Source of the DNA: a virus
DNA: 35,336 nucleotides
Reading direction: 5' to 3' (one strand)
Virus genome (UHGV): UHGV-0373725
Within the stretch, counting starts at the first letter, position 1; each line of letters opens with the position of its first letter. Under the pieces are notes generated by a model. It was not told where the DNA came from and did no database searches. It was given only the letters and a program-made list of their open reading frames with translations. A program made the translations under genes and the position numbers. Shown here one piece after another: positions 1,202 through 17,821 of the stretch.

Positions 1202-1430
1202 TAAAGATAGCTCCGAAGTCTGGTTCTTCCTCCCGCACCGTCTCTTCCTGCTGGTTGCGGTATTTAATCGGGTTCAGGAAATGGCCCCACGTCGTTTTAG
1301 GATGGCCGTCTGCCCTTTCCATGAAAAAGACACCGGCCCGACGTAGCGCTTCACACTGCCTCGATTTAAGTGGGGTCCCCGTCAGTTCGATCATTTCCTC
1401 TCTGGTGATGATGTCGTGATCGTGTCTCAT
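1185..1430 (-). CDS. Putative excisionase / small DNA-binding protein
   Basis: 81-aa ORF immediately upstream of int with a 17-nt overlap; start codon sits in the conserved GAGGAAAGACC-ATG cassette; functional call is by position and size only. Confidence 0.45.
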   Translation of the reverse strand: MRHDHDIITREEMIELTGTPLKSRQCEALRRAGVFFMERADGHPKTTWGHFLNPIKYRNQQEETVREEEPDFGAIFNGRKT

Positions 1431-1441
1431 GGTCTTTCCTC
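1428..1441 (-). promoter_or_regulatory. Conserved translation-initiation cassette GAGGAAAGACC-ATG (variant lacking one A), at the excisionase-like gene
   Basis: Minus strand reads gctGAGGAAAGACCATG; same element recurs at 4541, 5102, 6609, 9249 and 17807. Confidence 0.6.
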
Positions 1442-1585
1442 AGCATGCCGGCTATCGCGTTGTCTGCCGTATCGCAAGCGCGTTGGATATCGGACTGGGT
1501 CAGAGTCCTCTTTCTAACGCTGGCTGATAGCCTGCCAATTTTGATATCGAAATCTGAAAGTAAAAGTGTGCCTGGTTGCCAACGT

Positions 1586-1624
1586 AGCATTGTGATCTCC
1601 GGTTCATAGGTAGATCACAATGCT
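1586..1624. repeat. Perfect 13-bp inverted repeat AGCATTGTGATCT / AGATCACAATGCT with a 13-nt spacer, intergenic
   Basis: Read directly; no flanking T-run on either strand, so it looks like a protein-binding site rather than a terminator. Confidence 0.7.
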
Positions 1625-1639
1625 AACGACAGTTGCGAG

Positions 1640-1825
1640 TTATTTCTGATTAGGCTTAATCAGGTTTGGTTTATTCCGGAACGCGCCATTTTCGCGGGTG
1701 ATTTTGGCACTGCGCGGAAAATGCATAGCCAGTTCACAACGCGCGCAGGCTTCGATTATCCCGTTAGTACCGTCCGGAAAAACGACGTGAAGCGCGTCGC
1801 CTCGTTTCAGTGTGAGTTTCAGCAT
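1640..1825 (-). CDS. Small hypothetical prophage protein (DUF4222-like, tentative)
   Basis: 61 aa from the internal Met (MLKLTLKRGDALHVVFPDGT...); start lies 1 nt after the upstream gene's stop (TGAtATG). Confidence 0.5.
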   Translation of the reverse strand: MLKLTLKRGDALHVVFPDGTNGIIEACARCELAMHFPRSAKITRENGAFRNKPNLIKPNQK

Positions 1826-1826
1826 A

Positions 1827-2393
1827 TCAGCGCACCTGCAGCGAACGTTCGCCAATCTCAAGGTGAGCGCCCGGCACTGGGTTTAACAGTTCTTCCGGTA
1901 TCTCTCCGCCGTCAGCGGTAATCTGGGCCGCCGCTGCCTGTGCTGATTCAATCGCTTCCTTGATGGCTTTCTTGTCCGGAGTGACTAACGTCTGAACTGT
2001 CACTAATTCATCCGGCAGTAATTCATCATTATCGATCACGACGTTTATAGCTCCCTTACGTGCGGTAAAGGTATTTTTGGCGGTTTTAACCGTATCCTGA
2101 CCGGCGGCCAGTAGACACTGGAGAACATATTTCTTCAGGTTCGTGATCTTACCTTCGAATGATTTTTTGCGGGCGGCAAGGCGTTTGGCCTCTTCATCGC
2201 AGGTTTTTGCCAGGCCTTCCAGATTGCGAACGTGGACGAAAACGGCATCCAGTTTATCGCCGAGTTGTAACTCAAGACCTTCCATTGTGTCGGCGATCAT
2301 TTCAGGAGACAGACCAGCACCGTCTTCGTTTTCCAGTAGTGCCTGGAGTTTTGACATATCGGCTGCGATAGCAATTGCAGTGGTGGAAGTCAT
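1827..2393 (-). CDS. Siphovirus Gp157-family protein (recombination-module accessory protein)
   Basis: 188 aa, acidic helical N-terminus, family-like composition; ATGA start/stop overlap with the upstream annealing-protein gene, so co-transcribed. Confidence 0.55.
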   Translation of the reverse strand: MTSTTAIAIAADMSKLQALLENEDGAGLSPEMIADTMEGLELQLGDKLDAVFVHVRNLEGLAKTCDEEAKRLAARKKSFEGKITNLKKYVLQCLLAAGQDTVKTAKNTFTARKGAINVVIDNDELLPDELVTVQTLVTPDKKAIKEAIESAQAAAAQITADGGEIPEELLNPVPGAHLEIGERSLQVR

Positions 2394-4543
2394 TATGCTT
2401 TCTCCTCGGCTTTATTCAGTTCTTTAATGCGCCCATCTTTGATGGAGATGAGTCGGCGGAGCCGGCCAGACAGATAACGTTCATGCTGCGTGTCGCCGTT
2501 GGCCTGGGCGGCTTTAATGTGAACATCGATCTCACGTGCGATAGGGGAAAACACACCGTTGATTTCGTTCACCGTCACGCCATGCGCCAGGGTATTAGCA
2601 ACGCGGCTTAATTTATCGTCAAACTCCTGGCGGAGCCGTGCTGCATCTTCGGCTGATTCGCTGGCGTTCTTCAGGTCAAACTCGGCCTTGTTCTTCTGGC
2701 GGTACTCCAGATTGTCGTAAAGCCCCATAAAGATATCGCCACTGAATCCGAGGCCGGATAACGCTTTTTTGGTCGCATCTGTCAGTGATTTTTTGGCTGC
2801 TTCGCCGTCGCAGGTGATCCCGTATTTACTACCGTAAATGTAGGGTGTACAGCCGTATGCTGTTTCCTCACCTCGTACTCCGTTCAGGATGTACCAGAGC
2901 CGGACAGTCACAACATGGTGCTGTTCGTTGACGGTATTACCATTCCCATCAAGAACCAGCTCCCACGATGCGTTGTTGTCTTTGCCTTTTACCTGCCGAG
3001 TGATCGGCGCGCCAATATCGAAACGCTCTTCAACAATATCCACGCCCCAGCCGATGCCCTTAGGGCCAAACTCACGTGTGGCAAGCATGGTCATGTAGGT
3101 ACCGTTGATCGAGGTGCCACCGCCGTTCTGTGTGAAAGCCTTAGTAAACCTTTCGTCGGTTTTAAATACGCGTTTCCAGAGGTCTAAATTGTCTTCCCCG
3201 ATAATTGGTTTTCCGACAGCCTGCACAACATCCTCAGCGTTAGGCAGGCTTTCAGCGTGAGCGATTTGTTTTGCTAAACGCTCGGAATCATCAGCCAGTT
3301 TTTCAGCCTTAACGCTTAACTTCTCTTCCGGCTCTGCACCTTCACCAGAGGCATATACGCCATAACCCATATCATTGAGCGTCTCACGCGCCTGTTTGGC
3401 CTGAGTGTCGGTTACAACCGGCTGCTGCGCTTCCACTTTTTCGCCCACGTTTGAGGCGGTATTTTGCGTCGCCTCTGGTTGTTTAACGGATCCTGTCTCG
3501 GTTTCCTCAAAGCGACCGTTGGCCGCCAGCCATGAATCGATATGGCGGCGCAGGCTGTCAGGGAAATGGTAGGTATCTTTCGCCGGTACGTTTTGTACCA
3601 CGCCGAAGATGCTGGCACGGTCGTATTTGAGTATCTGCGGCGTGGTGTGCAGCGATGCTGACCAGCGTTTAAAATCTTCCCGGTCATCGGAAATCATCTT
3701 CTTAGCGTCCAGAAGGTTTCCGGATAGTACCGGCGCATCAGGCGCCAGCGGGAGAAGGGCGGTAGCGATCTCCTGATCCAGCGTTGCATAAGTGTGTTTA
3801 TACCCGCGCTTAGAAATTACCACGGGTGTTTTATCATCGGTGCTGGTGCTGAGAGCGGTATTTTTATATACGCCGGGGGCCAGTTCGTCGCGCTTGCCCG
3901 GATTCTCAAGCCAGCGTTTAACGAACTGAGAGATAGCCGCTTTGCCCGGCGTCTGGTTTTCAAAGTGGGAGAAAATACCCTGAATAAGATTGTTCAGACC
4001 TTCCACATGCATGCTTTGAACCGGGAAGTTATTTTGCAGGGCGCACAGAACATTAAAGTTAAAGCGATCTTCCTCTTCAAATTCCCCATCGTGGTTTTTC
4101 AGATTATCCAGATAATCCACAACCTGAGAATAAAGATGGCCATCAATCGCCGCGGTGCTAAAAAGCAGGACGGCAGCAAAGCGTTCATCAGGGGAAACGG
4201 TCATCAGGTCGATCACTTCATCGTCGGCTGGTAAACCTGCACCACTTCCGGAAGCGCTATCCTGCGCAGTAGAAACCCATTTTTCACCGTCAAAAGTATG
4301 CTGCTGGGCGAATGACTCATCGAACTGGCCAACGGTCGGCAGCGGCTGGCCTTCAACGTGTTCCCACAGTTTCGGTTTGAAATAGTTGTCACCATTGGCC
4401 GGGTATGATTCCCAGAGTTTGCCGGTCATAATGCTTTCGGCCACTTTTTTGTTTGGCGCATCGATGGCGATCGCCAGCTGCACGGCGCCGCAGTCTTTAA
4501 TCGCCGATTTCTTTGGCTCAAATGAGCCGTTGTAGATGGTCAT
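2393..4543 (-). CDS. Large (716 aa) protein with a C-terminal Rad52-like single-strand annealing domain and an uncharacterised ~450-aa N-terminal region
   Basis: Residues ~470-640 show the Rad52/Sak-type pattern (FGPKGIGWG, beta-hairpin VVTVRLWYILNG, AKKSLTDATKKALSGLGFSG compared with human Rad52 ARKEAVTDGLKRALRSFG). Start set at Met12, which sits in the conserved cassette (gaggaaagaccaATGACCATC). Confidence 0.6.
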   Translation of the reverse strand: MTIYNGSFEPKKSAIKDCGAVQLAIAIDAPNKKVAESIMTGKLWESYPANGDNYFKPKLWEHVEGQPLPTVGQFDESFAQQHTFDGEKWVSTAQDSASGSGAGLPADDEVIDLMTVSPDERFAAVLLFSTAAIDGHLYSQVVDYLDNLKNHDGEFEEEDRFNFNVLCALQNNFPVQSMHVEGLNNLIQGIFSHFENQTPGKAAISQFVKRWLENPGKRDELAPGVYKNTALSTSTDDKTPVVISKRGYKHTYATLDQEIATALLPLAPDAPVLSGNLLDAKKMISDDREDFKRWSASLHTTPQILKYDRASIFGVVQNVPAKDTYHFPDSLRRHIDSWLAANGRFEETETGSVKQPEATQNTASNVGEKVEAQQPVVTDTQAKQARETLNDMGYGVYASGEGAEPEEKLSVKAEKLADDSERLAKQIAHAESLPNAEDVVQAVGKPIIGEDNLDLWKRVFKTDERFTKAFTQNGGGTSINGTYMTMLATREFGPKGIGWGVDIVEERFDIGAPITRQVKGKDNNASWELVLDGNGNTVNEQHHVVTVRLWYILNGVRGEETAYGCTPYIYGSKYGITCDGEAAKKSLTDATKKALSGLGFSGDIFMGLYDNLEYRQKNKAEFDLKNASESAEDAARLRQEFDDKLSRVANTLAHGVTVNEINGVFSPIAREIDVHIKAAQANGDTQHERYLSGRLRRLISIKDGRIKELNKAEEKA

Positions 4544-4555
4544 TGGTCTTTCCTC
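4541..4555 (-). promoter_or_regulatory. Conserved translation-initiation cassette GAGGAAAGACCAATG at the annealing-protein gene, preceded by a GGCGC-gtgacct-GCGCC hairpin
   Basis: Read directly on the minus strand. Confidence 0.6.
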
Positions 4556-4587
4556 TTGGTTACTGGCGCAGGTCACGCGCCGGTTAA

Positions 4588-4911
4588 TTAAAACGGTACG
4601 TCGCTTTCTTCAATTGGAGAGTGATCGATGCACAGCAGCTGCTGAATCTGGTCTTCAATAACACCCAGCTCCTTCTTTGCTTCGGCAGAGATTTTCTCTT
4701 TCTTCGCACGAAGGGCATTAACCTGCATACCAATAATGTCGATTGGCTCTAAAGCTGGAATGGCAACCTCTACCGTTTTGGTAGTAACGAGGACATACAG
4801 ATCAGGGTATTGCTGTGACATGTCACAGGTGAATGAGTGATAAGACGTTGGTAGATATGGTTTGGTTGTGGCCATAACGTAAATAGTTACGGGGATGGTA
4901 AGCGCTTCCAT
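4588..4911 (-). CDS. Hypothetical early protein (107 aa) with an acidic C-terminal tail ending ...IEESDVPF
   Basis: Good Shine-Dalgarno (AAGGAGtcgctATG); first gene of the leftward early operon. Confidence 0.6.
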   Translation of the reverse strand: MEALTIPVTIYVMATTKPYLPTSYHSFTCDMSQQYPDLYVLVTTKTVEVAIPALEPIDIIGMQVNALRAKKEKISAEAKKELGVIEDQIQQLLCIDHSPIEESDVPF

Positions 4912-4973
4912 AGCGACTCCTTGATGATATATACTCAGAGCCGATCAGCGGCTCTGTCGTTGGTCTTTCCTCG

Positions 4974-4995
4974 CTACAGGGTTGGTCCCCTGTAG
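4974..4995. promoter_or_regulatory. Hairpin CTACAGG-gttggtcc-CCTGTAG next to a degenerate copy of the cassette (GAGGAAAGACCAAcg, no start codon)
   Basis: 7-bp perfect stem read directly; adjacent motif at 4960-4972. Confidence 0.5.
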
Positions 4996-5029
4996 CATTC
5001 TGGGCGGTTTGGTCACTGTCCCGGGTAAA

Positions 5030-5104
5030 TTAGCCCACTTCGGTGGGCTTTTTTACGCCTGAAGGTTGCCGGTCTTTCCCGGCTGTCAGGGTGGTCAGCC
5101 CCAT
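5030..5104 (-). CDS. Possible 24-codon mini-ORF (MGLTTLTAGKDRQPSGVKKPTEVG) behind a perfect copy of the cassette
   Basis: gaggaaagaccaATG at 5102-5116 on the minus strand followed by an open frame to TAA; too short for the ORF track; could be a leader peptide or fortuitous. Confidence 0.2.
   Translation of the reverse strand: MGLTTLTAGKDRQPSGVKKPTEVG
5032..5055 (+). terminator. Strong intrinsic terminator on the plus strand (7-bp stem, UUCG tetraloop, T-run) with no plus-strand gene upstream
   Basis: AGCCCAC-ttcg-GTGGGCT followed by TTTTTT. Confidence 0.55.
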
Positions 5105-5262
5105 TGGTCTTTCCTCGTTACTGCGTGAATGCTTTAAAAAAATGCCCGGGGCGCCCGGGCCAAGACTACACACAGCAATTCGTATTCGTTGCGGTCTTTC
5201 CCGCATGTCATCGTACTGTCGGCGACCCGAAGAATTCGCGCCCGTCTTTCCGGACTGTCAGA
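5068..5262 (-). repeat. Three ~20-nt direct repeats, each a short hairpin with a GAAAGA loop (minus-strand sense) and a different but complementary stem
   Basis: Plus strand: GCCGG-TCTTTC-CCGGC (5068-5083), TGCGG-TCTTTC-CCGCA (5189-5204), CCG-TCTTTC-CGG (5244-5255); each followed by a TGTCA(G) box. Confidence 0.65.
5136..5160 (-). terminator. Intrinsic terminator for leftward transcription
   Basis: GCCCGGG-gcg-CCCGGGC stem-loop preceded on the plus strand by AAAAAAA, which is a U-run after the hairpin on the minus strand. Confidence 0.55.
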
Positions 5263-5374
5263 ACTGTTTCTGAACAACTGCCGCGTGGTTAGTGCGTCTT
5301 TGATGTGGTGAAGCATAACCAAAGGTATTTTTATTGGCAATGTTTTTTACTAACAAAAGTTAATATTAGAGGTG

Positions 5375-5420
5375 TAAAAAAAGGCAATGCATTGAAAACA
5401 TTGCCTTTAATTTATTTTTT
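5375..5420 (-). terminator. Terminator immediately downstream of the repressor gene (hairpin flanked by A-run and T-run, possibly bidirectional)
   Basis: AAGGCAATG-cattgaaaa-CATTGCCTT with flanking A7 and T-rich runs. Confidence 0.55.
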
Positions 5421-5825
5421 TGGAGTGTTTTTTTTCTTTTTTACCAAAAGTAACTCATCAAACAATCGCTGGAATCCGTCAACTTTATCTTTCAACTCAT
5501 TGATATGTCTATCTTTTTCTGATTCAGGTAGAGAATCAAAAAGATCAAGCAGTAGCTTTTGGCGATCATCTAACCGAGGTAAAAGCTCTTCTGCCTTCAA
5601 CGGTTCATCGCTATCGGTACCGTTAAGTAACCATGTCGGAGAGCAACGAAGAGCCTCAGCGAGAGAAAACAGATTTTGCCCTTTTGGGGTGTTAATACCT
5701 GCTTCCCACTTGTAAACGCTGACGCCAGATATGCCAACGGCATCGGCGAGCTGCTGTTGTGTCAAACCAAGCTCTTTCCGTCTCGATGTAATGCGATCGT
5801 TAAAGGTCAATTTTTTCATATCCAT
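5412..5825 (-). CDS. Phage repressor, XRE-family helix-turn-helix (CI / RacR-like); no LexA-type S24 peptidase domain
   Basis: 137 aa; HTH LTQQQLADAVGISGVSVYKWEAG; divergent from a Cro-like gene; no Shine-Dalgarno, TATATT immediately upstream of the ATG (possible leaderless mRNA). Confidence 0.8.
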   Translation of the reverse strand: MDMKKLTFNDRITSRRKELGLTQQQLADAVGISGVSVYKWEAGINTPKGQNLFSLAEALRCSPTWLLNGTDSDEPLKAEELLPRLDDRQKLLLDLFDSLPESEKDRHINELKDKVDGFQRLFDELLLVKKKKNTPKK

Positions 5826-5893
5826 AATATAAGTTAACTTGACATAACTTTCGTTAGTATTTATGTTCCTAACTGACGTTAGGAGAGGAAACT
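5826..5893. promoter_or_regulatory. Divergent promoter/operator region of the immunity switch
   Basis: Plus-strand -35 TTGACA (5839-5844) with a -10-like TATGTT 17 bp downstream; palindrome CCTAAC-tgac-GTTAGG (5868-5883) and a further CGTTAG half-site (5852-5857). Confidence 0.5.
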
Positions 5894-6091
5894 ATGAAGA
5901 CCGAAACTGTTATCAGATTTTTTGGAACTAAAACCGCTGTTGCGCGTGCATTAGGTATCTCTCAAGTCGCTGTAACCCGCTGGGGGACTGTTGTTCCTGA
6001 AAAGCGAGCTGCGCGACTTGAGCATGTAACCGCGGGCGCCTTGAAGTACGACCCTACTTTTTACGAAGAGCAAAACACGTCTAAAGCATAA
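5894..6091 (+). CDS. Cro-like / YdaS-like HTH regulator
   Basis: 65 aa, HTH TKTAVARALGISQVAVTRWG; first gene of the rightward operon; Shine-Dalgarno AGGAGAGG. Confidence 0.7.
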   Translation: MKTETVIRFFGTKTAVARALGISQVAVTRWGTVVPEKRAARLEHVTAGALKYDPTFYEEQNTSKA

Positions 6092-6153
6092 CTACAGGCG
6101 TTATCGAAATCTGATTACGCTTAATCAATTTTCAGCGACAGGAGACGCTCGAA

Positions 6154-6600
6154 GTGGAATACCTCGAAGAACTTAAACGAGAGATCTTTAACTGGGCAGC
6201 GGAAAGCGGGCAGGAGCTGGTTGCTATCGAGATAAGCCGCATGTGGTTTCGTCTTGGTGGTAATACCGGTTCGCTGAAGCTGCACCAGATCGAAGATGCA
6301 GATGGAAACGCCGACTGGCGGGCAATCAACAACAACCGCCAACAAATTTTTCGTTGGTTGCGAGGCGAGACCAAAGCCGCGAGAGCCAAAACTCTGGCGC
6401 TGGTCAAAGCGATGGAAGCGGCGCTGCCGGCAGAACGTTACGCGCGCTTGGGTATGTCCACCCAGTATTTAATTTGTGTGGCCATTCGTGAGTTTGCCGC
6501 GGCGATTATCGCGTTATTACTCGACGCCAGAGACGGGCCGCAGCAAGTCGCCAGAGCATTGCAAGCTATGCGAGAAACACAGCGCCTGACCAGCGTTTAA
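6154..6600 (+). CDS. CII-like / YdaT-family regulator (tentative)
   Basis: 148 aa, GTG start with CAGGAG Shine-Dalgarno; position after the Cro-like gene and motif ...FRWLRGETK... recalled from YdaT-like proteins. Confidence 0.5.
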   Translation: MEYLEELKREIFNWAAESGQELVAIEISRMWFRLGGNTGSLKLHQIEDADGNADWRAINNNRQQIFRWLRGETKAARAKTLALVKAMEAALPAERYARLGMSTQYLICVAIREFAAAIIALLLDARDGPQQVARALQAMRETQRLTSV

Positions 6601-6608
6601 CCTGTACC

Positions 6609-6623
6609 GAGGAAAGACCAATG
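6609..6623 (+). promoter_or_regulatory. Conserved translation-initiation cassette GAGGAAAGACCAATG, preceded by a GCGCctgaccaGCG hairpin and TTAACC
   Basis: Read directly; identical 15-mer at 9249 and 17807. Confidence 0.6.
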
Positions 6624-6842
6624 AGAACACAAGACCGCATCACCTGGCGGAACGGGTTTCGCCGGAACGGGGTACAAGTCCCGATGGAAGATATCGAATC
6701 GATTTTCGAGGAACGTCGCGCTACTGCGCTGACAATCTGGGAACGCTACGAACTGCGCAAGGCAGACCTGCAGGAAGCGGGACTTACCCAGAAAGAATAC
6801 GAAATCGCCTGCCGTCAGCTGGCTGACTCGCTGGGGATCTGA
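6621..6842 (+). CDS. Hypothetical protein (73 aa)
   Basis: ORF starting in the conserved cassette; no recognisable motif. Confidence 0.5.
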   Translation: MRTQDRITWRNGFRRNGVQVPMEDIESIFEERRATALTIWERYELRKADLQEAGLTQKEYEIACRQLADSLGI

Positions 6843-6844
6843 GT

Positions 6845-9222: not shown

Positions 9223-9248
9223 CCGCGCCTGACCAGCGCGATTTAACT

Positions 9249-9263
9249 GAGGAAAGACCAATG
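9249..9263 (+). promoter_or_regulatory. Conserved translation-initiation cassette GAGGAAAGACCAATG, preceded by a CGCGC-ctgacca-GCGCG hairpin
   Basis: Read directly. Confidence 0.6.
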
Positions 9264-9929
9264 ACCACGAATTTAAATTACCCAAAACCAGTAAAACCGG
9301 ATGATGGCTGCAACTGGCTCCCCGTTATTCTCTGGCGCATGAATGCCGGTGCGCGCGCCCGTAGCCGTTCCGTGTTCGTAGCGGCGCCACGTCCGGCCCC
9401 TGTACCAGGCATCACCCCGCAAAAACCGATTAAGCGAGAAATTATCGCCCCTACGGTTTCCGGCCGCAGGCGTAAAACCCACATCGGCACCGTGATTTAT
9501 TCCAGAGGTGAAAAAAGCGTTCGCCTTAGCGAAGGCGCGACTGTCTGGTCTGCTGGCTCAAATGAGCATTTCGATAAAAAAACGGGCCAGCGCGTCGGCA
9601 GTATTGGTCGTCACCGTCTGGTGCTGGAGAGTATCCGCCCATTGCAGGCCAGCGACGCACAACAGGACGCCGGGAGCGTCACCGCGCAGCAACTGGTAGC
9701 CGTGATGAAAGGCAAAACGCTTTCTTACCAGGGCATTCTGGCATTAATCCAGAAGCACTATCCCGATTGTCAGGTGACGACTAAAGAACTTCACGATCGC
9801 GTGTTCGGCATGTTCATGTCGAATTACGTGGGTATCACCCGTCACGACGATATGCCGGTGGTTCACTTCACGCTTAACAGCGTCGATCCCCGTTATTACA
9901 TCGAGTCAGCGAAGAACAAGAGGGCATAA
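9261..9929 (+). CDS. Hypothetical protein (222 aa)
   Basis: ORF with the conserved cassette; basic Pro/Arg-rich N-terminal region; no recognised domain. Confidence 0.55.
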   Translation: MTTNLNYPKPVKPDDGCNWLPVILWRMNAGARARSRSVFVAAPRPAPVPGITPQKPIKREIIAPTVSGRRRKTHIGTVIYSRGEKSVRLSEGATVWSAGSNEHFDKKTGQRVGSIGRHRLVLESIRPLQASDAQQDAGSVTAQQLVAVMKGKTLSYQGILALIQKHYPDCQVTTKELHDRVFGMFMSNYVGITRHDDMPVVHFTLNSVDPRYYIESAKNKRA

Positions 9930-12143: not shown

Positions 12144-12170
12144 AACCGTCAGAAATGGCGGTTTTCTTTT
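12144..12170 (+). terminator. Weak terminator-like hairpin with T-rich tail
   Basis: AACCG-tcagaaatgg-CGGTT followed by TTCTTTT. Confidence 0.35.
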
Positions 12171-12300
12171 GAATTCAATCGGATATTTTGAGATTTATTG
12201 TTGATTTTTAACGATTCGTGCTCTTAAAAATTTGCGCTCACTGTCAGTTGGTAGTATATATACTGTAATTTTATACAGTATTGTTGTTGAGGGAGAGGTA

Positions 12301-12492: not shown

Positions 12493-12560
12493 TTACCCCG
12501 TTGGCCTGAACACCCAACACCATGTAATTCTGAACAATTGCTGCGCTAAAGGGGAACCCA

Positions 12561-13157
12561 ATGGCGCAGTATTCTTTTGTAAAAGCACCCGGCGGTGTAT
12601 TAATTCCGGCAACGCCTGACGCCCGCGAATTCTTAGAAAAAAAAGTCCGCATGGGCGGTATTCTGTATGCGGATTTTAAACAGGCAAGGAACTCGGCATT
12701 TCACCGTAAATTTTTTGCCCTCCTGAATCTGGGATTTGATTACTGGCAACCTTCCGGCGGTGCAATATCGCCAGCCGATAAAAAACTGGTTCGGGGTTAC
12801 GTGCAGCTGGTGGCCCACTATGCCGGGCATGGCGACACATTGCAGGAACTGGCGGATCAGTATCTGCGCGATGAGGCAGAAAAACGCGCCGGCAATATCA
12901 GCGCGGTTAAATCGTTTGAAGCTTTCCGTTCCTGGGTAACTATCGAGGCCGGTTTTTATACCGAATACCAGATGCCTGATGGCACCACCCGCAAGGAACC
13001 CAAATCCATATCGTTCGCAAAAATGGACGATGTAGAATTTTCCCAGCTGTACAAATCCGTATTAGACGTCCTCTGGAATTTTATTTTATTCCGCACCTTC
13101 CCTAATCAGCAGGCAGCAGAAAACGCAGCCTCTCAGCTTTTCAGTTATGCGGCCTGA
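12561..13157 (+). CDS. Hypothetical phage protein (198 aa), possibly NinB/Orf-like or DUF1367-like (tentative)
   Basis: Shine-Dalgarno AAGGGG; motif FHRKFFALLNLG loosely resembles the NinB QNRKLWACLG region; family assignment not verified. Confidence 0.5.
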   Translation: MAQYSFVKAPGGVLIPATPDAREFLEKKVRMGGILYADFKQARNSAFHRKFFALLNLGFDYWQPSGGAISPADKKLVRGYVQLVAHYAGHGDTLQELADQYLRDEAEKRAGNISAVKSFEAFRSWVTIEAGFYTEYQMPDGTTRKEPKSISFAKMDDVEFSQLYKSVLDVLWNFILFRTFPNQQAAENAASQLFSYAA

Positions 13158-13167
13158 GGCGGACACT

Positions 13168-13644
13168 ATGAAATTCAATATTCGCTCTCATATCGTCGAG
13201 ATGGATGAGGCCGACGCCTTGATCTTTGTGGGTTACCCCATCCACATCGGCTCGAATGGTTATGCAAAAGTCACCGGCTGGCATTTTGGCAAGGAAAGAT
13301 ACCTTCATCGCGTCATCATGAATGCGGGGCCTCATGATGTTGTAGATCACATTGATGGTAATAAGCTCAACTGCACCCGCTCAAATCTGAGGATCTGCAC
13401 ACAGGCCGACAATACCAAAAATGTGGGCTTGAGGAGTGACAATAGCTCAGGAATTCCGGGAATTTACTGGGTATCCACTCGCCTAAAATGGGCGGCGCAA
13501 ATTTCAGTTGATGGCAGGACCGTTAGTTTAGGCCGCTTTGATGAAATTGCCGATGCTATCAATGCCCGCCGGAAAGCAGAAGATTTGTATTACGGGGAGT
13601 TTGCAGCCAGCAAGGGGGTGCTTTGTGAAAAAGCGCGCCAGTAA
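13168..13644 (+). CDS. HNH endonuclease with AP2-type DNA-binding domain
   Basis: HNH motif (HRVIMN...HIDGNKLNCTRSNLRICTQADNTKN) followed by an AP2-like segment (IPGIYWV...KWAAQISVDGRTVSLGRFDEIADAINARRKAE). Confidence 0.75.
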   Translation: MKFNIRSHIVEMDEADALIFVGYPIHIGSNGYAKVTGWHFGKERYLHRVIMNAGPHDVVDHIDGNKLNCTRSNLRICTQADNTKNVGLRSDNSSGIPGIYWVSTRLKWAAQISVDGRTVSLGRFDEIADAINARRKAEDLYYGEFAASKGVLCEKARQ

Positions 13645-13939
13645 ATCAGATAAGCAATATTTCCAAGATCTCGTTGAGATAGGTTGTATTGTCTGCAAAG
13701 TACACTTCGGCGTGTACTCCGCCCCCGAAATCCATCACATCCGAACCGGTCAGGGCATAGCCCAGCGCGCCGACCACAAAGAAACTCTCCCGCTTTGCCC
13801 GCCACACCACAGAACCGGCGGACACGGCGTAGCTATCCACGCAGGGCAAAAAACATGGGAAGAAAACTACGGCACGGAGACTGAATTGCTCGAACAGGTC
13901 ACTAACGAGATAAAGGAATTACGTCTATGCAGAATTTAA
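13625..13939 (+). CDS. Putative Cys/His-rich zinc-binding phage nuclease (YbcO/Ref-like, tentative)
   Basis: GTG start overlapping the upstream stop; CIVCK...EIHHIRTG...LPLCPPHHR...HGVAIH pattern. Confidence 0.4.
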   Translation: MKKRASKSDKQYFQDLVEIGCIVCKVHFGVYSAPEIHHIRTGQGIAQRADHKETLPLCPPHHRTGGHGVAIHAGQKTWEENYGTETELLEQVTNEIKELRLCRI

Positions 13940-14091
13940 TTCCGTCTCTAAGAGCAGCAGATAACGCTAAAAAATGCGGTTGGCCAGCACGTGCGGAAAG
14001 CATGAAATTCTGTTCAGGCTCCTTTTCCATTCTGGCGGGCGGCGATTTTGCCCTTCTCTATGCTCGCGCACGCGCGCGTTTAGGGGGCTGA
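13927..14091 (+). CDS. Possible small ORF (54 aa), not in the ORF track
   Basis: ATG overlapping the upstream stop (ATGcagaatTTAA) and ending 3 nt before the next start; fills an otherwise empty gap. Confidence 0.3.
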   Translation: MQNLIPSLRAADNAKKCGWPARAESMKFCSGSFSILAGGDFALLYARARARLGG

Positions 14092-14094
14092 ATT

Positions 14095-14391
14095 ATGCCG
14101 CTGGTCGCCACCTTCCGTACAGACTGGTTCAGAGTCATTACCGACCTGACCCGAAAAAATCTCACCACTCAGCAAATCGCCGATGAACTTGGCGTTTCAA
14201 AATCCGCCGTCCTCGGCTGGAAATCTGGATCAGAGCCTCGCCATGGTCACGGTGAAGCGCTGATTGCTCTCTGGTGTCTGGCTACCAGCTCAGACCGTAA
14301 AAAACTCCCCACAGTGCTTTACCGCCAGTGGTGGACGTTCCGCCGCCCTGTTTTTGGTCGGGAAACTGACCAGAAGGGCAACACACAATGA
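14095..14391 (+). CDS. HTH-containing protein, candidate late-gene regulator (function unknown)
   Basis: 98 aa; HTH-like LTTQQIADELGVSKSAVLGW; sits at the junction between the accessory region and the virion module. Confidence 0.5.
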   Translation: MPLVATFRTDWFRVITDLTRKNLTTQQIADELGVSKSAVLGWKSGSEPRHGHGEALIALWCLATSSDRKKLPTVLYRQWWTFRRPVFGRETDQKGNTQ

Positions 14392-14418
14392 CGACTCACT
14401 AATACAGGAGTGAAAAAA

Positions 14419-14859
14419 ATGGTTCGACCGAAAAAAATCGTTGAGATGCCGGGGCAGGAAAAAGCGGCGCCGGAAGAAAAAACGTTCGTTACAGAGGGGC
14501 AGTTAATTACTGCTGAACAGACCGGCGCGCAGCAGCAGGGTAGCGATAGCGACGAACAGACCGTGCAGCAGAATGTTTCAACCCTGCTTGATGGTACTCA
14601 GTTGGCAGAACGTAACGCCATTCTAGCCACACTCAACGCGCAGGGCGCTGCGATCGTTGCCCGCTTCGAAGAGTACGGCTTCACCGACACTATCGGCCAC
14701 CCGCTGACCAACTGTCTCGATTTCCTCAGTCTGGTACGCAAAGCCACTGATGTAAGCACTGGCGGCACAGCGGAGCAGGTGACAAACGAGGAAGGCAAAA
14801 AGCAACCCGTACGCAGTGCGCCGGTATTAACCGAACACGGCTGGCACGTTCCGGGCTAA
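14419..14859 (+). CDS. Hypothetical protein (146 aa), possibly virion-associated
   Basis: AGGAG Shine-Dalgarno 8 nt upstream of the ATG; acidic/Gln-rich; position just before the gp6.7-like and portal genes. Confidence 0.5.
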   Translation: MVRPKKIVEMPGQEKAAPEEKTFVTEGQLITAEQTGAQQQGSDSDEQTVQQNVSTLLDGTQLAERNAILATLNAQGAAIVARFEEYGFTDTIGHPLTNCLDFLSLVRKATDVSTGGTAEQVTNEEGKKQPVRSAPVLTEHGWHVPG

Positions 14860-14869
14860 GGAGAATTTT

Positions 14870-15091
14870 ATGTGTGGTAGCGCACCAAAAGTTGTTCAGT
14901 CAGACCCGCAGGCCGAAGCCGACGCAGCAGCAGACGCAGCGGCCAAAGCTGCGAACGCTGACGCAGCAGCGCGCAAAAAGCGCAAACAGGGATCATCCCT
15001 GCTGGCCAGCGGCGCAGAAGGCGCAACGGATACAGGTTCTTCCCTGCTGTCCACTGGCGCACAGGCCGCAAAAAATACGTTAGGGGCTTAA
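14870..15091 (+). CDS. T7 gp6.7-like small virion protein
   Basis: N-terminus MCGSAPKVV compared with T7 gp6.7 MCFSPKIKT; AAGGAG Shine-Dalgarno; immediately upstream of the portal gene. Confidence 0.45.
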   Translation: MCGSAPKVVQSDPQAEADAAADAAAKAANADAAARKKRKQGSSLLASGAEGATDTGSSLLSTGAQAAKNTLGA

Positions 15092-15094
15092 TTC

Positions 15095-16720
15095 ATGGAT
15101 CAACTCGCCAGCCGGTTAATCAGGCGCGCTGACACGCTGAAAGCAAATCGCCAGGTGCACGAAAGCGTCTGGCGGGAATGCTACGACTACACCTATCCGC
15201 TGCGCGGGGCCGGGTTTTCGTCTGAGGTGCTGGACGCACAGAGCGCAAAGCACAAGGTTGCGAAGCTGCTGGACGGCACAGCCACCGACAGCGCCCGTAT
15301 GCTGGCGTCCGCGCTTATGTCAGGGATGACCCCGGCGAATGCTCAATGGCTGAACCTCGACAGCGAATTACTTCCTGATGACGCTAAGGCGTGGTTGTCC
15401 ACCTGTGCAACGCTGGTATGGGAAAATATCCACGCCGCTAACTTTGACGCGGAAGGGTACGAGGCCAATCTCGATGTGGTCTGTGCTGGCTGGTTCGCGC
15501 TGTACGTCGATGAGGACAAGGAAGAGGGAGGATTTACCTTCCAGCAGTGGCCGCTGGCGCAATGCTTTGTGACTTCCACCCGCCGGGATGGCATCGTGGA
15601 CACGATTTATCGGTGCTATCAGCTCACCGCTGAACAGGCAGTGAAAGAATTCGGCGCGGACAAGGTAAGCGAAAAAATCCGCGATGCTGCAAAAAACAAA
15701 CCTGACGATAAATTTGATTTCCTGCACTGCATTTTCCCGCGTGATACCTACGCCGTAAATGCGAAGCTGGCGCGCAATATGCGTTTTGCATCGTTCAACG
15801 TGGAAGTGAACGGCAAGCGTATCGTGCGTGAATCCGGCTATCACGAATTCCCTGTGTGCGTCCCGCGCTGGATGAAAATTCCCGGCGGCTCCTACGGTAT
15901 CGGCCCGGTATACGACGCGCTGCCGGACTGCAAAGAGCTGAACGAAACCAAACGCATGGAGAAGGCCGCGCAGGATCTGGCTATCTCCGGTATGTGGATT
16001 GCTGAGGATGACGGCGTGCTCAACCCGCGAACGGTAAAAGTTGGCCCGCGCCGCGTCATCGTGGCGAACAGCACCGAAAGCATGAAACCTTTGCTCACCG
16101 GCGCAGATTTCAACGTGGCGTTTACCGCTGAACAGCGCCTGCAGGCTTCCATTCGCAAAATCATGATGGCCGATCAGTTGCAACCGCAGGACGGCCCGGC
16201 AATGACTGCTACCGAAGTGCATGTGCGTGTCGCGCTGATCCGCCAGTTGCTTGGCCCGGTCTATGGACGATTCCAGGCTGAATACCTGCAACCGCTGGTG
16301 GAGCGCTGCTTCGGTATTGCGTTCCGCGCTGGCGTTTTTCCTCCCGCTCCCGAGAGCCTCCAGAGCGCCAATTTCAACGTGCGTTATATCTCCCCGCTGG
16401 CCCGTGCGCAGAAGCTGGAAGATGTGACCGCCATCGAGCGATACGGCCAGAACATCATGCAGCTGGCGCAGGCGTACCCGGATGTACTGGACAACATGGA
16501 CAGCGACGAGGCGAGCAAGGTTGTCGGCGAGGCTCTTGGCGTTCCGGCAAAAGTTATGCGTTCCGCTGATGCGGTCGAGCAACTTCGACAGCAGCGCCAG
16601 CAGATGCAACAGCAGCAGGCGCAACAGCAGTTGCTGATGCAGGCCGGGACGGAAGCCGCCGGCGCAGCAGGGCAGGCAGCAGGCGCAATTATGGGACAAC
16701 GACTGGCGGGCAACCAATGA
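15095..16720 (+). CDS. Portal (head-to-tail connector) protein, T7 gp8-like
   Basis: 541 aa; collinear resemblance to T7 gp8 including the Gln/Ala-rich C-terminal tail. Confidence 0.85.
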   Translation: MDQLASRLIRRADTLKANRQVHESVWRECYDYTYPLRGAGFSSEVLDAQSAKHKVAKLLDGTATDSARMLASALMSGMTPANAQWLNLDSELLPDDAKAWLSTCATLVWENIHAANFDAEGYEANLDVVCAGWFALYVDEDKEEGGFTFQQWPLAQCFVTSTRRDGIVDTIYRCYQLTAEQAVKEFGADKVSEKIRDAAKNKPDDKFDFLHCIFPRDTYAVNAKLARNMRFASFNVEVNGKRIVRESGYHEFPVCVPRWMKIPGGSYGIGPVYDALPDCKELNETKRMEKAAQDLAISGMWIAEDDGVLNPRTVKVGPRRVIVANSTESMKPLLTGADFNVAFTAEQRLQASIRKIMMADQLQPQDGPAMTATEVHVRVALIRQLLGPVYGRFQAEYLQPLVERCFGIAFRAGVFPPAPESLQSANFNVRYISPLARAQKLEDVTAIERYGQNIMQLAQAYPDVLDNMDSDEASKVVGEALGVPAKVMRSADAVEQLRQQRQQMQQQQAQQQLLMQAGTEAAGAAGQAAGAIMGQRLAGNQ

Positions 16721-16950
16721 TCAAAAAAGACGTAACCCCTGAAGACTACCGGCGCATTTTCGAGGAGATGCCCGGCGGGCCGCAGGTGCTGGACGAATTA
16801 ACGCGCCGCTTCGGGCGTGAGGCGTATGTCAAAGGCGGTACCGAAGGCGACCGGGAAACCTGTTACCGGGCCGGACAGCGTTCCGTGCTCGATTTCATTC
16901 TGATGCAAATCAACAAAGCAGACGGAGTAAACGACGATGTGGAAGTTTAA
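16717..16950 (+). CDS. Hypothetical protein (77 aa) between portal and scaffold genes
   Basis: ATGA overlap with the portal stop. Confidence 0.5.
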   Translation: MIKKDVTPEDYRRIFEEMPGGPQVLDELTRRFGREAYVKGGTEGDRETCYRAGQRSVLDFILMQINKADGVNDDVEV

Positions 16951-17785
16951 ACACTTATTCATGAACACCGAAACAGGTGCAGAAGCGCCAGCGGGTAACG
17001 CAGGAGGGGATGATGCTGGTAATAGCGATGGTACTCAAAATCCGGGCGGCGGTACTCCTGCTGGTACTTCGCTACTCAGCACCGGCGCGGGCGAACAAGG
17101 CGCGGATGACTGGCTACCTGAAAAATACCGCGTTATGGGCGATGACGGAAAACTCAACGTTGAAGGCTCAGCCCGCAAACTGGCGGATGCTTACACGCAC
17201 CTTGAAAAGCGCATGGGCAGCGGCGACACGCCGCCGAAAACGGCTGATGAGTATGCGCCAAAGGTAGAGGTCGAGGGTTTTAAGTGGGACGAATTCAAAG
17301 CCGACCCGCGCATGCAATCCTTCATGAAATCGGCTCATGCCAAAGGCATCACCAACGATCAGATGGGTTTCATCCTGGGCGAATATGCACAGCTGGCCCC
17401 CGAACTGGTTAACGGTGCTGCGGCGCTGGATTCGGAAGCCGCCGCCACGCAGCTGCGCGAGACGTGGAAAACTGACGCCGAGTTTAATAAAAACATCGGT
17501 CTGGCTTTCCGGGCATTTAACTCTCTGGCAGATGACGGCGACAAAGGGCGCATGGATGAAATCGGCAATAACCCGATGGTGATCCGCATGCTGGCGAAAA
17601 TCGGCGCTGAAATGCAGGAGGATGCGCCGGCGGGCGGCGATGTGAATCTCGAAGAACAGCAATCAATCCGTGACCTGATGAAGTCCCCGGCCTACATGGA
17701 TCCTAAACACGCCGACCATGAGAACGTTTCCGCCCGGGTTCGCGCGTACTACCAGAAGCGTTACGGTGATCAAACTGTAGCGTGA
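16937..17785 (+). CDS. Putative scaffolding protein (T7 gp9 position)
   Basis: 282 aa, acidic, Gly-rich N-terminus, helical composition; located between portal and capsid genes. Confidence 0.5.
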   Translation: MWKFKHLFMNTETGAEAPAGNAGGDDAGNSDGTQNPGGGTPAGTSLLSTGAGEQGADDWLPEKYRVMGDDGKLNVEGSARKLADAYTHLEKRMGSGDTPPKTADEYAPKVEVEGFKWDEFKADPRMQSFMKSAHAKGITNDQMGFILGEYAQLAPELVNGAAALDSEAAATQLRETWKTDAEFNKNIGLAFRAFNSLADDGDKGRMDEIGNNPMVIRMLAKIGAEMQEDAPAGGDVNLEEQQSIRDLMKSPAYMDPKHADHENVSARVRAYYQKRYGDQTVA

Positions 17786-17806
17786 CATGTCACGACAACC
17801 TAACCA

Positions 17807-17821
17807 GAGGAAAGACCAATG
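17807..17821 (+). promoter_or_regulatory. Conserved translation-initiation cassette GAGGAAAGACCAATG inside the virion module, preceded by palindrome CGTGACATGTCACG
   Basis: Read directly; the only copy outside the early region. Confidence 0.6.

What the first reader, a model, noticed from the sequence alone, without database searches (positions are those of the whole stretch)
1428..17821. Near-identical hairpin plus GAGGAAAGACCAATG translation-initiation cassette reused at six gene starts
The 15-mer GAGGAAAGACCAATG (start codon included) occurs perfectly at 6609, 9249 and 17807 on the plus strand and at 4541 and 5102 on the minus strand, with a one-base variant at 1428 and a degenerate start-less copy at 4960. 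Most copies are preceded by a short GC hairpin with a TGACC-containing loop and a TAAC(C) spacer. Ordinary ribosome-binding sites are not conserved over 15 nt, which suggests a specific recognised element such as a translational operator, an mRNA processing site analogous to T7 intergenic RNase III sites, or a recombination-generated module boundary. One copy lies inside the late virion module (gene 17819-18235), hinting that this gene is an inserted early-type cassette.
Basis: seen in the sequence. Interest (0 to 1): 0.65.

Follow-up and report, generated by a model that had tools for sequence, protein, structure and literature searches.

The report
Shared gene-start cassette matching antisense sRNA
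Seven genes of this prophage start with the same ~15-base ribosome-binding cassette. The sequence is the exact complement of the 5' end of a conserved small antisense RNA gene in the same phage, so one RNA probably switches all of these genes off together, and the cassette also marks where genes get swapped between phages.

Summary
GAGGAAAGACCAATG occurs exactly five times (0.03 expected by chance), and there is also an ACG copy and a one-base-deletion copy. All seven lie on the transcribed strand.

The window is a Klebsiella-type, Rac/lambda-like prophage. In relatives whose proteins are only 40-57% identical, the core (G)AGGAAAGACCA and usually a GC hairpin with a YUGACCW loop persist at the same gene starts. 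The spacers around them and the position of the start codon vary.

One leader copy (4958-4972) has no conserved ORF. It lies inside a conserved opposite-strand small-RNA gene (about 4942-5055, + strand) with:
- a -10 box;
- a single-stranded anti-cassette;
- two hairpins with UUGGUC loops;
- a terminator.

G·U pairs and folding energies favour that strand in 27 of 27 relatives.

Sister lineages use GAGGCAAGACC or GAGGCAAAACC at all their gene starts, and their antisense gene carries the matching complement (172/173, 16/17 and 5/5 concordant).

Insertions and homology breaks fall exactly at cassettes.

Best reading (inferred, untested): a shared translational operator for an antisense sRNA weakly resembling IsrB, which also serves as a mosaic junction. 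The RNase III reading is not supported.

The parts
1428..1441 (-). Cassette variant GAGGAAAGACC-ATG (one base shorter) at the start of the excisionase gene (1185-1430)
   Evidence: The homology block with phage BUCT708 begins exactly here.
4541..4555 (-). Exact cassette at the start of the 716-aa exonuclease gene (2393-4543)
   Evidence: Conserved in orthologues at 55-78% protein identity.
4565..4581 (-). Hairpin GGCGCG-UGACC-UGCGCC upstream of the exonuclease cassette
   Evidence: Stem covariation across relatives.
4958..4972 (-). Start-less cassette copy (ACG) in the leftward leader. Its complement on the + strand is the anti-cassette (seed) of the antisense sRNA.
   Evidence: In relatives it heads non-conserved 10-47 aa ORFs or no ORF at all.
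4930..4935 (+). Candidate -10 box TATACT of the antisense sRNA promoter
   Evidence: A -10-like hexamer (TATACT, TATAAT or TAAAAT) is kept in 43 of 47 unique relatives.
4942..5055 (+). Predicted antisense sRNA (weakly IsrB-like). It has a 5' hairpin, the single-stranded seed CGUUGGUCUUUCCUC (4958-4972), HP1 (4973-4996, loop UUGGUC), HP2 (5000-5024, loop UUUGGUCA) and a terminator (5032-5054).
5102..5116 (-). Exact cassette copy in the leftward leader, just after terminator tL0. It heads a 24-aa ORF that is not conserved in more distant relatives. Candidate decoy.
5087..5103 (-). Leader hairpin UGGGG-CUGACCA-CCCUG that overlaps the ATG of the 5102 copy
6581..6597 (+). Hairpin AGCGC-CUGACCA-GCGUU at the end of the cII/YdaT-like gene
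6609..6623 (+). Exact cassette at the start of the 73-aa gene (6621-6842)
9224..9240 (+). Hairpin CGCGC-CUGACCA-GCGCG after the dnaB stop codon
   Evidence: Kept in orthologues with 40-57% protein identity.
9249..9263 (+). Exact cassette at the start of the 222-aa gene (9261-9929)
17781..17794 (+). Palindromic hairpin CGTGACATGTCACG upstream of the late-region cassette
   Evidence: The same palindrome-plus-cassette pair occurs in relatives and in the sister lineage in front of other genes.
17807..17821 (+). Exact cassette at the start of accessory gene p138 (17819-18235, Pfam Phage_gp49_66)

Best explanation
The cassette is the translation-initiation region (SD core GAGG, fixed spacer AAAGACCA, start codon) of each early or accessory gene that is translated on its own in this prophage family.

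Its spacer is held constant because the whole 15-17 nt stretch is the pairing site of a phage-encoded antisense small RNA. That RNA is transcribed from the + strand at about 4942-5055, opposite the leader of the leftward early operon. Its single-stranded 5' part, (C/U)(G/A)UUGGUCUUUCCUC, is the exact complement of the cassette, because the gene overlaps a start-less leader copy of it. Its two hairpin loops (UUGGUC) are complementary to the GACCA of the cassette and to the YUGACCW loops of the hairpins in front of most cassettes.

Pairing would cover the SD and the AUG. It would therefore shut off translation of xis, the exonuclease, p73, p222 and p138 together, most plausibly in the lysogen, where the converging leftward promoter is silent. 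On induction, the leftward transcript would titrate the RNA, because it carries the perfect complement plus an extra start-less cassette/hairpin unit.

Every such gene begins with the same short sequence, so the cassette also serves as the junction at which genes are inserted, lost or exchanged between phages.

Shown: the elements, their conservation, the strand-specific structure of the antisense gene, and the concordance of alleles. Inferred: transcription of the sRNA, pairing in trans, the direction of regulation, and the decoy role.
For: 1. Seven sense-strand copies against 0.03 expected by chance. The other genes have ordinary RBSs.

2. Nine loci retrieved through proteins rather than through the motif (exonuclease at 55-78% identity; p222 homologues at 40-57%) all keep AGGAAAGACCA at the orthologous starts. 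The hairpin-to-cassette spacer varies in length (9-20 nt) and sequence, and the start codon slides (ATG, AATG, AATATG, AACATG, AAGTG). Selection therefore acts on the core itself.

3. Leader copies lack start codons or head non-conserved ORFs of 8-47 aa.

4. Evidence for the antisense gene:
- A terminator with its T-run on the + strand only.
- In an alignment of 27 unique relatives, the seed TTGGTCTTTCCT and the loop TTGGTC are invariant while the stems carry compensatory changes.
- The + strand RNA is the more stable in 27 of 27 (mean -43.9 vs -38.1 kcal/mol), with 94 G·U pairs against 6.
- In the window the MFE is -58.6 (z -7.4) for the + strand and -42.7 (z -5.3) for the - strand.
- A -10-like hexamer is kept in 43 of 47 unique sequences, although the hexamer itself changes (TATACT, TATAAT, TAAAAT).
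- There is a sub-threshold Rfam match to isrB (28.7 bits, E 0.014). IsrB is an sRNA detected experimentally on the opposite strand between a small gene and the exonuclease gene sbcA in Gifsy prophages (PMC2330248; expressed in lysogens, 10.1101/787010).

5. Seed and targets co-vary. Sister lineages use GAGGCAAGACC (4-7 copies per genome, in unrelated AT-rich flanks) or GAGGCAAAACC (6 of 6 in L162), and their antisense gene carries the matching complement. Concordance is 172/173, 16/17 and 5/5. The two variable positions lie in the SD-AUG spacer, which the ribosome does not read.

6. Co-folding ranks the five cassette genes next after the cis-overlapping p107 region: ddG -21.6 to -28.6 kcal/mol against -14.5 or weaker for 34 other gene starts. 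This partly follows from the complementarity itself.

7. 75 of 94 TGACC motifs lying within 45 nt upstream of a core sit in hairpin loops. Stem covariation gives 61 double-change cells against 18.4±5.1 in shuffles, 0 of 500 reaching the observed value.

8. Mosaic junctions fall at cassettes.
Against: - There are no expression data. The 5' end of the sRNA is inferred from a -10-like box with a poor -35. If transcription starts downstream of 4972, the 15-nt seed is not in the RNA.
- The antisense gene contains a cassette copy by construction. Seed-target concordance therefore shows concerted evolution of all copies, but cannot by itself separate an RNA from a co-evolving protein or from gene conversion.
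- The UUGGUC loops are necessarily the complement of the sense-strand GACCAA loops.
- Similarity to IsrB is below Rfam's threshold and weak by nhmmer (8 bits, E 0.16). Gifsy-2 has no cassettes.
- In the sister lineage many cassettes have no upstream hairpin, so the loop-loop step cannot be essential.
- In the predicted fold, part of the seed (UUGGUC) pairs with the conserved GAUCAG.
- The loci come from pattern scans, and many are near-duplicates.
Confidence: 0.5

Rival explanations
1. Protein-bound translational operator. A phage (or host) RNA-binding protein recognises RACC(A) motifs, which occur in the hairpin loop (UGACCA), the spacer (UAACC) and between SD and AUG (AGACCA). It represses or activates all cassette genes, as T4 RegA or CsrA do. 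The leader copies titrate or nucleate the protein.
For: - Three RACC motifs per module at loose spacing.
- The loop sequence is conserved while the stems covary.
- Start-less copies are clustered in the leader.
- Concerted allele change within genomes would also fit a co-evolving protein.
Against: - No candidate protein was found. p73, p107 and p222 have no Pfam family.
- The p222 model shows a C-terminal winged helix typical of DNA binders.
- This reading does not explain the conserved promoter, terminator and G·U-rich structure on the opposite strand.
- In the sister lineage many cassettes lack both the hairpin and the TAACC motif.
Confidence: 0.2
2. A portable strong start region and recombination linker only. 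The cassette is simply a good RBS that travels with genes. Its identity is kept by recombination or gene conversion between copies (phage exonuclease, Gam, NinB), and no factor reads the spacer. The antisense RNA acts only in cis on the leader.
For: - Indels and homology breaks lie exactly at cassettes. The BUCT708 homology block spans 1427-5115. A 315-nt gene insertion in L123 is flanked by GAGGAAAGACCA repeats. After an identical upstream sequence the gene is p138 here and a Tad2-like gene in a relative.
- The same cassette precedes many unrelated genes.
- Precedent: PeSL cassettes of T4-type phages (PMC2839356, PMC4122927).
Against: - 12-15 nt islands in unrelated flanks are poor substrates for homologous gene conversion, yet 4-7 dispersed copies per genome share lineage-specific spacer alleles.
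- The sequence between hairpin and cassette diverges freely, so the region is not homogenised as a block.
- GAGG plus an 8-nt spacer is a moderate SD, not an exceptional one (sequence).
- Start-less copies are conserved.
Confidence: 0.2
3. An mRNA processing or stabilising module. An RNase cuts in the AU-rich stop-codon region (UUUUAA(UUAA)CC), and the hairpin then protects the 5' end of the downstream cistron.
For: - UUUUAA-CC often precedes the hairpin.
- The hairpins are intercistronic and on the sense strand.
Against: - Stems of 4-6 bp are far too short for RNase III.
- A stabiliser hairpin does not need a conserved loop or a fixed SD-AUG spacer.
- The hairpin at 6581-6597 lies inside the upstream coding sequence.
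- Hairpins are often absent in the sister lineage.
- No Rfam family matched.
Confidence: 0.06
4. nut-like antitermination sites. The hairpins are boxB analogues (GCGCCUGACCAGCGC compared with P22 boxB GCGCUGACAAAGCGC, the latter quoted from memory) that load an N-like protein onto RNA polymerase.
For: - Superficial similarity of stem and loop to P22 boxB.
- A terminator lies about 150 nt after the leftward promoter, so read-through is needed.
Against: - At least five sites per genome, each fixed a few nucleotides before an RBS rather than after the promoters.
- No N-like or Q-like protein among the early genes.
- No boxA-like partner was seen.
- The first leader hairpin with a CUGACCA loop lies after the terminator, not before it.
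Confidence: 0.04

Closest known systems
c4 antisense RNA of phages P1/P7 (immI) and CI RNA of satellite phage P4 (Rfam C4, RF01695)
   Same: A small phage RNA acts as an immunity factor. Its short exposed sequences pair with repeated complementary sites on phage mRNA, one of them covering an RBS. The regulator and its targets are sequence copies of each other within one leader region. (From established knowledge of these systems.)
   Different: - c4 and CI are processed from the same strand as their targets. Here the RNA is on the opposite strand.
- Their targets lie in one operon. Here at least five dispersed genes in both early operons and in the late region share the site.
- There is no Rfam C4 match.
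IsrB-1/IsrB-2 sRNAs of Salmonella Gifsy-2/Gifsy-1 prophages (Rfam RF01386)
   Same: - Same place and strand: antisense, between a small early-left gene and the exonuclease gene.
- A hairpin with a UUUGGUC loop followed by a GCCCRC-UUCG-GYGGGC terminator.
- 88-94 nt, detected by Northern blot and primer extension, and expressed in lysogens (PMC2330248, 10.1101/787010).
   Different: - The match is below the Rfam threshold (28.7 vs 35 bits) and weak by nhmmer.
- Gifsy-2 has no cassette copies, and GACCAA occurs only once in its early region.
- IsrB has no anti-cassette seed, and no function has been published for it in the papers found.
PeSL 'mobile regulatory cassettes' of T4-type phages (Arbiol et al. 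2010, PMC2839356; Comeau et al. 2014, PMC4122927)
   Same: Near-identical short regulatory sequences at the starts of many genes flank insertions, deletions and replacements, and are thought to mediate modular shuffling.
   Different: PeSLs are composites of an early promoter and a stem-loop terminator, not RBS cassettes. No complementary trans-acting RNA is described for them. They occur in lytic myoviruses, not temperate lambdoid phages.
T4 RegA translational repressor, RegB endoribonuclease and CsrA-type regulators
   Same: One factor recognises a short motif at or next to the SD of many early mRNAs and co-regulates them. CsrA bridges a hairpin-loop motif and an SD-overlapping motif.
   Different: Those are proteins that recognise degenerate motifs. 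Here 11-15 nt are invariant and a complementary RNA gene is present. No RegA, RegB or CsrA homologue was found.
P22 sar RNA and lambda OOP RNA
   Same: Short antisense RNAs of temperate phages, ended by intrinsic terminators, that block translation or stability of an early gene.
   Different: They act only in cis on the overlapping transcript. Here complementarity extends in trans to several unlinked genes.

Membership tests
Rfam isrB (RF01386) | Covariance-model score at or above the gathering threshold (35 bits) | tested here: not met
   28.7 bits, E 0.014, for window 4969-5053(+). No isrB hit at gathering threshold in the window or in 8 relatives. nhmmer against the Gifsy-2 IsrB locus gives 8 bits, E 0.16.
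Rfam isrB (RF01386) | Encoded antisense between a small early-left gene and the prophage exonuclease gene, ending in an intrinsic terminator | tested here: met
   Window: between p107 (4588-4911) with the exonuclease gene on one side and the leftward promoter on the other, on the + strand, with terminator 5032-5054. Gifsy-2: between STM1010 and sbcA on the opposite strand.
Rfam isrB (RF01386) | A stable transcript of about 90 nt is detected | not testable with these tools
   No expression data are available for this phage.
C4 antisense RNA (RF01695; P1 c4, P4 CI) | Covariance-model match; RNA on the same strand as, and upstream of, its target sites | tested here: not met
   No C4 hit even at E<=10 in 4400-6700. 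The candidate RNA is on the opposite strand.
PeSL mobile regulatory cassette | Composite of an early promoter and a stem-loop terminator | tested here: not met
   The promoter scan finds no promoter-like site at any cassette. The cassette is an SD, a spacer and a start codon.
PeSL mobile regulatory cassette | Copies flank indels and replacements between related genomes | tested here: met
T7-type intercistronic RNase III site | Long (about 20 bp or more) imperfect hairpin between cistrons | tested here: not met
   Stems are 4-6 bp (9 bp at 4973-4996).
lambdoid nut site (boxA + boxB) | One site downstream of each early promoter, a boxA partner, a GNRA-like pentaloop boxB, and an N protein | tested here: not met
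   At least 5 RBS-proximal sites with 7-nt YUGACCW loops. No N-like protein in PHROGs or Pfam scans. boxA was checked by eye only.
trans-acting base-pairing sRNA with an anti-SD seed | Own promoter and intrinsic terminator, conserved structure on its own strand, and an accessible seed complementary to target RBSs | tested here: inconclusive
   Terminator, strand-specific structure and a -10 box are conserved. The seed is complementary to 5 RBSs and co-varies with them. The transcription start, accessibility (partly paired in the MFE) and regulation itself are untested.

The most novel reading that the evidence does not exclude
A family of enterobacterial temperate phages runs an RNA-addressed 'regulon by cassette'. 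Any gene that acquires the ~15-nt start cassette comes under control of one antisense sRNA. The same cassette is the recombination joint through which genes are plugged in. Lineages have diverged into incompatible cassette/sRNA alleles (GGAAAGACC, GGCAAGACC, GGCAAAACC), which would act as RNA-level immunity or compatibility groups, analogous to repressor-operator heteroimmunity.
Probability: 0.3. Interest if true: 0.85.

Novelty: new variant of a known kind. Interest (0 to 1): 0.72.

Why it matters
Antisense RNA control is known in phages, but it normally involves one RNA and one overlapping target. Here a single short address sequence would tie several unlinked early genes and accessory genes, including the excisionase and recombination genes, to one RNA. 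The same sequence would act as the plug-in point for new genes.

This gives a concrete, testable molecular version of the old 'linker sequence' idea for phage mosaicism. It suggests a function for the orphan IsrB class of prophage sRNAs. It also offers a natural, portable, orthogonal set of RBS/sRNA pairs (three alleles) for engineering.

If the RNA part proves wrong, what remains is still one of the clearest cases of concerted evolution of dispersed start regions in a phage genome.

Tried and rejected
- Rfam at gathering threshold on the window and on 8 relatives found nothing but tRNAs.
- A literature search for the sequence itself returned only unrelated hits. A search for prophage sRNAs acting on RBSs found nothing describing this.
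- Extended pairing of the cassette with the 3' end of 16S rRNA was checked by hand. Only GAGG pairs (4 bp), so this was rejected.
- RNase P or tRNA-end mimicry by ACCA was rejected. The stems are too short and the ACC lies in the loop. ARAGORN finds no tRNA in the window or in the related leaders.
- EcoP1I site (AGACC) or methylase target: no support, since orientation follows transcription.
- Gifsy-2 was examined for cassettes and has none.
- The three TGACAK-CGGGAAAGACCG repeats in the leader (family D9) were first taken for cassette copies. They are separate hairpins with a GAAAGA loop and covarying stems, and they keep GGAAAGAC even in the GGCAAGACC lineage.
- The first pairwise 'one-sided homology' count used thresholds too close to background and was uninformative. 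It was replaced by explicit alignments.
- GACC versus GGTC strand bias is genome-wide (132 vs 63) and so not diagnostic.

Full report
**What is in the window**

GAGGAAAGACCAATG occurs exactly at 4541-4555(-), 5102-5116(-), 6609-6623(+), 9249-9263(+) and 17807-17821(+). An ACG variant lies at 4958-4972(-). That makes six matches against 0.03 expected, and no shuffle out of 100 reached six. A seventh copy, GAGGAAAGACC-ATG, lies at 1428-1441(-) and is one base shorter.

The window is a temperate phage. Its genes include:
- integrase (185-1201) and excisionase;
- a leftward early operon with a Gam-like protein and a 716-aa exonuclease;
- a cI-like repressor (5412-5825), cro, and a YdaT/cII-like protein;
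- replication genes (O-like protein, DnaB);
- virion and lysis genes.

Close homologues of its proteins come from Klebsiella and relatives. The nearest deposited phage is 'Stenotrophomonas' phage BUCT708, 81-88% identical over the early region.

All seven copies lie on the transcribed strand. Five are the start regions of xis, the exonuclease, p73, p222 and p138. The remaining ~36 genes have ordinary, varied Shine-Dalgarno regions.

Canonical GC hairpins with an NTGACCN loop precede three copies. The other copies have related or different hairpins.

**Conservation**

An exact-pattern scan of IMG/VR returned at least 120 loci, many with 2-5 copies at the same orthologous genes. That set is biased by the pattern, so I also retrieved loci through proteins:
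- four genomes through the exonuclease (55-78% identity);
- five contigs through p222 homologues at 40-57% identity.

Every one keeps (G)AGGAAAGACCA, and usually GCGC-CTGACCA-GCGC, at the orthologous starts. The 9-20 nt between hairpin and cassette differ freely. The start codon sits 0-4 nt after GACCA (ATG, AATG, AATATG, AACATG, AAGTG). The conserved unit is therefore the core AGGAAAGACCA rather than the ATG, and the region is not homogenised as a block.

Of 94 distinct TGACC motifs within 45 nt upstream of a core, 75 lie in hairpin loops. The stems show compensatory change: 61 double-change cells against 18.4±5.1 in shuffles, with 0 of 500 shuffles reaching the observed value. That set was pre-filtered for pairing.

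**The leader and the antisense gene**

Downstream of a promoter-like site (5340-5312, minus strand), the leftward transcript first meets a strong terminator (5160-5144). After that comes a cassette copy (5102) fused to a CUGACCA hairpin. Further on lies the ACG copy (4958), just before the real RBS of p107. In relatives these two copies carry AAG, ACG or AGTG instead of ATG, or head ORFs of 8-47 aa that are not conserved. They are therefore kept for a non-coding reason.

On the opposite (+) strand there is an intrinsic terminator (5032-5054) with no + strand gene to serve. A permissive Rfam scan matched 4969-5053(+) to isrB (28.7 bits against a threshold of 35; E 0.014).

An alignment of 27 distinct relatives shows, in this order on that strand:
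- a -10-like hexamer;
- a small 5' hairpin;
- an invariant TTGGTCTTTCCT, the complement of the cassette;
- a 9-bp hairpin with loop UUGGUC and many compensatory stem changes;
- a ~10-bp hairpin with loop UUUGGUC that is rich in G·U pairs;
- a terminator with its T-run on this strand only.

Strand comparison favours the + strand:
- It folds better in 27 of 27 sequences (mean -43.9 vs -38.1 kcal/mol).
- It has 94 G·U pairs against 6. A G·U pair becomes a C·A mismatch on the other strand, so this points to the + strand as the structured RNA.
- In the window the MFE is -58.6 kcal/mol (z -7.4) for the + strand and -42.7 (z -5.3) for the - strand.

A 5-of-6 match to TATAAT is kept in 43 of 47 unique sequences, although the hexamer itself varies (TATACT 34, TATAAT 5, TAAAAT 4). 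It lies mostly 23-34 nt upstream of the GGTCTT motif of the seed.

IsrB-1 and IsrB-2 of Salmonella Gifsy prophages are experimentally detected 88-94-nt RNAs. They lie in the same place and orientation, antisense next to the sbcA exonuclease gene (PMC2330248), and are expressed in lysogens (10.1101/787010). The sequence link is weak, however, and Gifsy-2 has no cassettes. I therefore treat IsrB as the closest relative by position, not as the same family.

**Seed and targets change together**

A scan for the hairpin alone turned up variant cassettes.

L162 uses GAGGCAAAACCAATG at all six sites. Its antisense gene reads CATTGGTTTTGCCTCG and keeps TATACT, both hairpins and the terminator.

A large sister lineage uses GAGGCAAGACC(A)ATG at 4-7 gene starts per genome. 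The flanks there are AT-rich and unrelated, often with no hairpin. Its antisense gene again carries the matching CATTGGTCTTGCCTC.

Across 55 loci with a recognisable antisense gene, the allele inside that gene matches the other gene-start cassettes in 172 of 173, 16 of 17 and 5 of 5 cases for the three alleles.

The two variable positions lie in the SD-AUG spacer and the SD core GAGG is unchanged. The ribosome cannot be what holds the spacer constant within a genome. Dispersed 12-15-nt islands in unrelated flanks are also poor substrates for ordinary gene conversion. A trans-acting reader that co-evolves with its sites is the simplest explanation, and a complementary RNA gene is present.

One caveat matters here. 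The antisense gene contains a cassette copy by construction, so this concordance cannot by itself exclude a co-evolving protein.

Co-folding the predicted RNA with all 40 gene starts ranks p222, p138, exo, p73 and xis next after the cis-overlapping p107 region (ddG -21.6 to -28.6 kcal/mol, against -14.5 or weaker for the rest). This largely restates the complementarity.

**Module boundary**

The homology block with BUCT708 runs from 1427 to 5115, that is, from one cassette to another.

L123 carries an extra 93-aa gene in front of the exonuclease gene. The 315-nt insertion is flanked on both sides by GAGGAAAGACCA.

After an identical protease-gene end, palindrome and cassette, the window has p138 (Pfam Phage_gp49_66) where L129 and L056 have a Tad2-like gene. 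The same palindrome-plus-cassette unit precedes yet another gene in the sister lineage.

This function is compatible with the operator function: any gene that joins through the cassette would also come under the same control.

**Mechanism proposed, and what is inferred**

Shown:
- the elements and their selective conservation;
- the strand-specific structure of the antisense gene;
- allele concordance;
- junctions at cassettes.

Inferred:
- that the + strand RNA is made from about 4942;
- that its UUUCCUC/UUGGUC seed pairs with SD-spacer-AUG in trans and blocks initiation;
- that its UUGGUC loops contact the YUGACCW loops (CUGA is a YUNR-type loop, as in many antisense targets; from general knowledge);
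- that it acts in the lysogen;
- that the leftward leader titrates it on induction.

I put the overall statement at 0.5. Broken down:
- cassette as start region, about 0.9;
- existence of the antisense RNA gene, about 0.8;
- trans control as the reason for conservation, about 0.5;
- loop-loop contacts, about 0.3.

**Rivals**

A protein operator and a pure RBS/recombination linker each get about 0.2. RNA processing and nut-type antitermination are unlikely, because the stems are only 4-6 bp, the sites are RBS-proximal and numerous, and there is no N-like protein.

**Comparison with known systems and novelty**

The system would work like P1 c4 or P4 CI, where a small phage RNA has repeated complementary target boxes, one of them at an RBS. 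It would also work like P22 sar. It is not a member of the C4 family (no model match, and the RNA is on the opposite strand). It also fails Rfam's threshold for isrB.

As a mobile junction it resembles the PeSL cassettes of T4-type phages, but it lacks their promoter-terminator make-up.

I found no description of this cassette or of its link to an antisense RNA. The region is unannotated in RefSeq E. coli genomes that carry related prophages. I rate it a new variant of a known kind.

Noticed in passing
window 5134-5235 (-): The first ~165 nt of the leftward early transcript end in a segment almost identical to the 3' half of the host sRNA RprA (ACGAAUUGCUGUGUGUAGUCUU plus terminator). The Rfam RF00034 score is 43.3 bits, below the threshold of 70. 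The AUUGCUGUGUGUAGUCUU(U)GCCC-terminator part is conserved in all related leaders examined. It could be a phage-borne RprA mimic.
   Followed up: partly
window 14356-14371, 18289-18304, 29067-29082, 31000-31015, 33903-33918 (+): The imperfect palindrome GGTCGGGATTCCGACC occurs at five sites (seven strand-matches against 0.26 expected by chance). Each site lies roughly 40-110 nt upstream of a late gene start (p149, major head protein, p113, p839, holin). The variants break the hairpin, so this looks like a DNA site for a late activator or late promoter rather than an RNA structure.
   Followed up: partly
window 5069-5082, 5191-5204, 5242-5253 (sense = minus strand): Three leader hairpins with a GAAAGA loop and covarying stems (CCGG/CCGG, CCCG/CGGG, CTCG/CGAG in relatives), each preceded by TGACAG or TGACAT. 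Two lie before and one after the leader terminator. They are distinct from the cassette, since they keep GGAAAGAC even in the GGCAAGACC lineage. Function unknown; they may be read-through (nut/put-like) elements.
   Followed up: partly
window 4815-4826 and 17782-17793: The 12-bp perfect palindrome GTGACATGTCAC occurs inside the p107 coding sequence (conserved in relatives) and again just upstream of the late-region cassette. In the sister lineage the same palindrome plus cassette precedes a different early gene.
   Followed up: partly
L162 about 2930-3010 (minus strand), L043 leader: The leftward leaders of some relatives contain tRNA T-arm-like segments (GGTTCGACTCCGGG...ACCA). ARAGORN calls no tRNA there.
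   Followed up: partly
L002 (OM816834, 'Stenotrophomonas phage vB_SmeS_BUCT708'): The early region of this deposited phage is 81-88% identical to this Klebsiella-type prophage, and related prophages lie in Klebsiella, Raoultella, Citrobacter and Enterobacter. The host named in the record looks doubtful. It also annotates the p73 homologue as 'adenylate cyclase', a label that has spread through NCBI records without visible support.
   Followed up: no
[not shown]
   Followed up: partly
window 1-132: The left end is about 91% identical to the ends of several E. coli phage or prophage records. It is probably the bacterial or attachment-site flank next to the integrase gene. No tRNA is called in the window.
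   Followed up: no
window 4942-4965 (+): In the predicted sRNA fold, the invariant GAUCAG near the 5' end pairs with the UUGGUC of the seed, leaving only UUUCCUC (the anti-SD part) single-stranded. This may be a self-masking feature of the seed.
   Followed up: no
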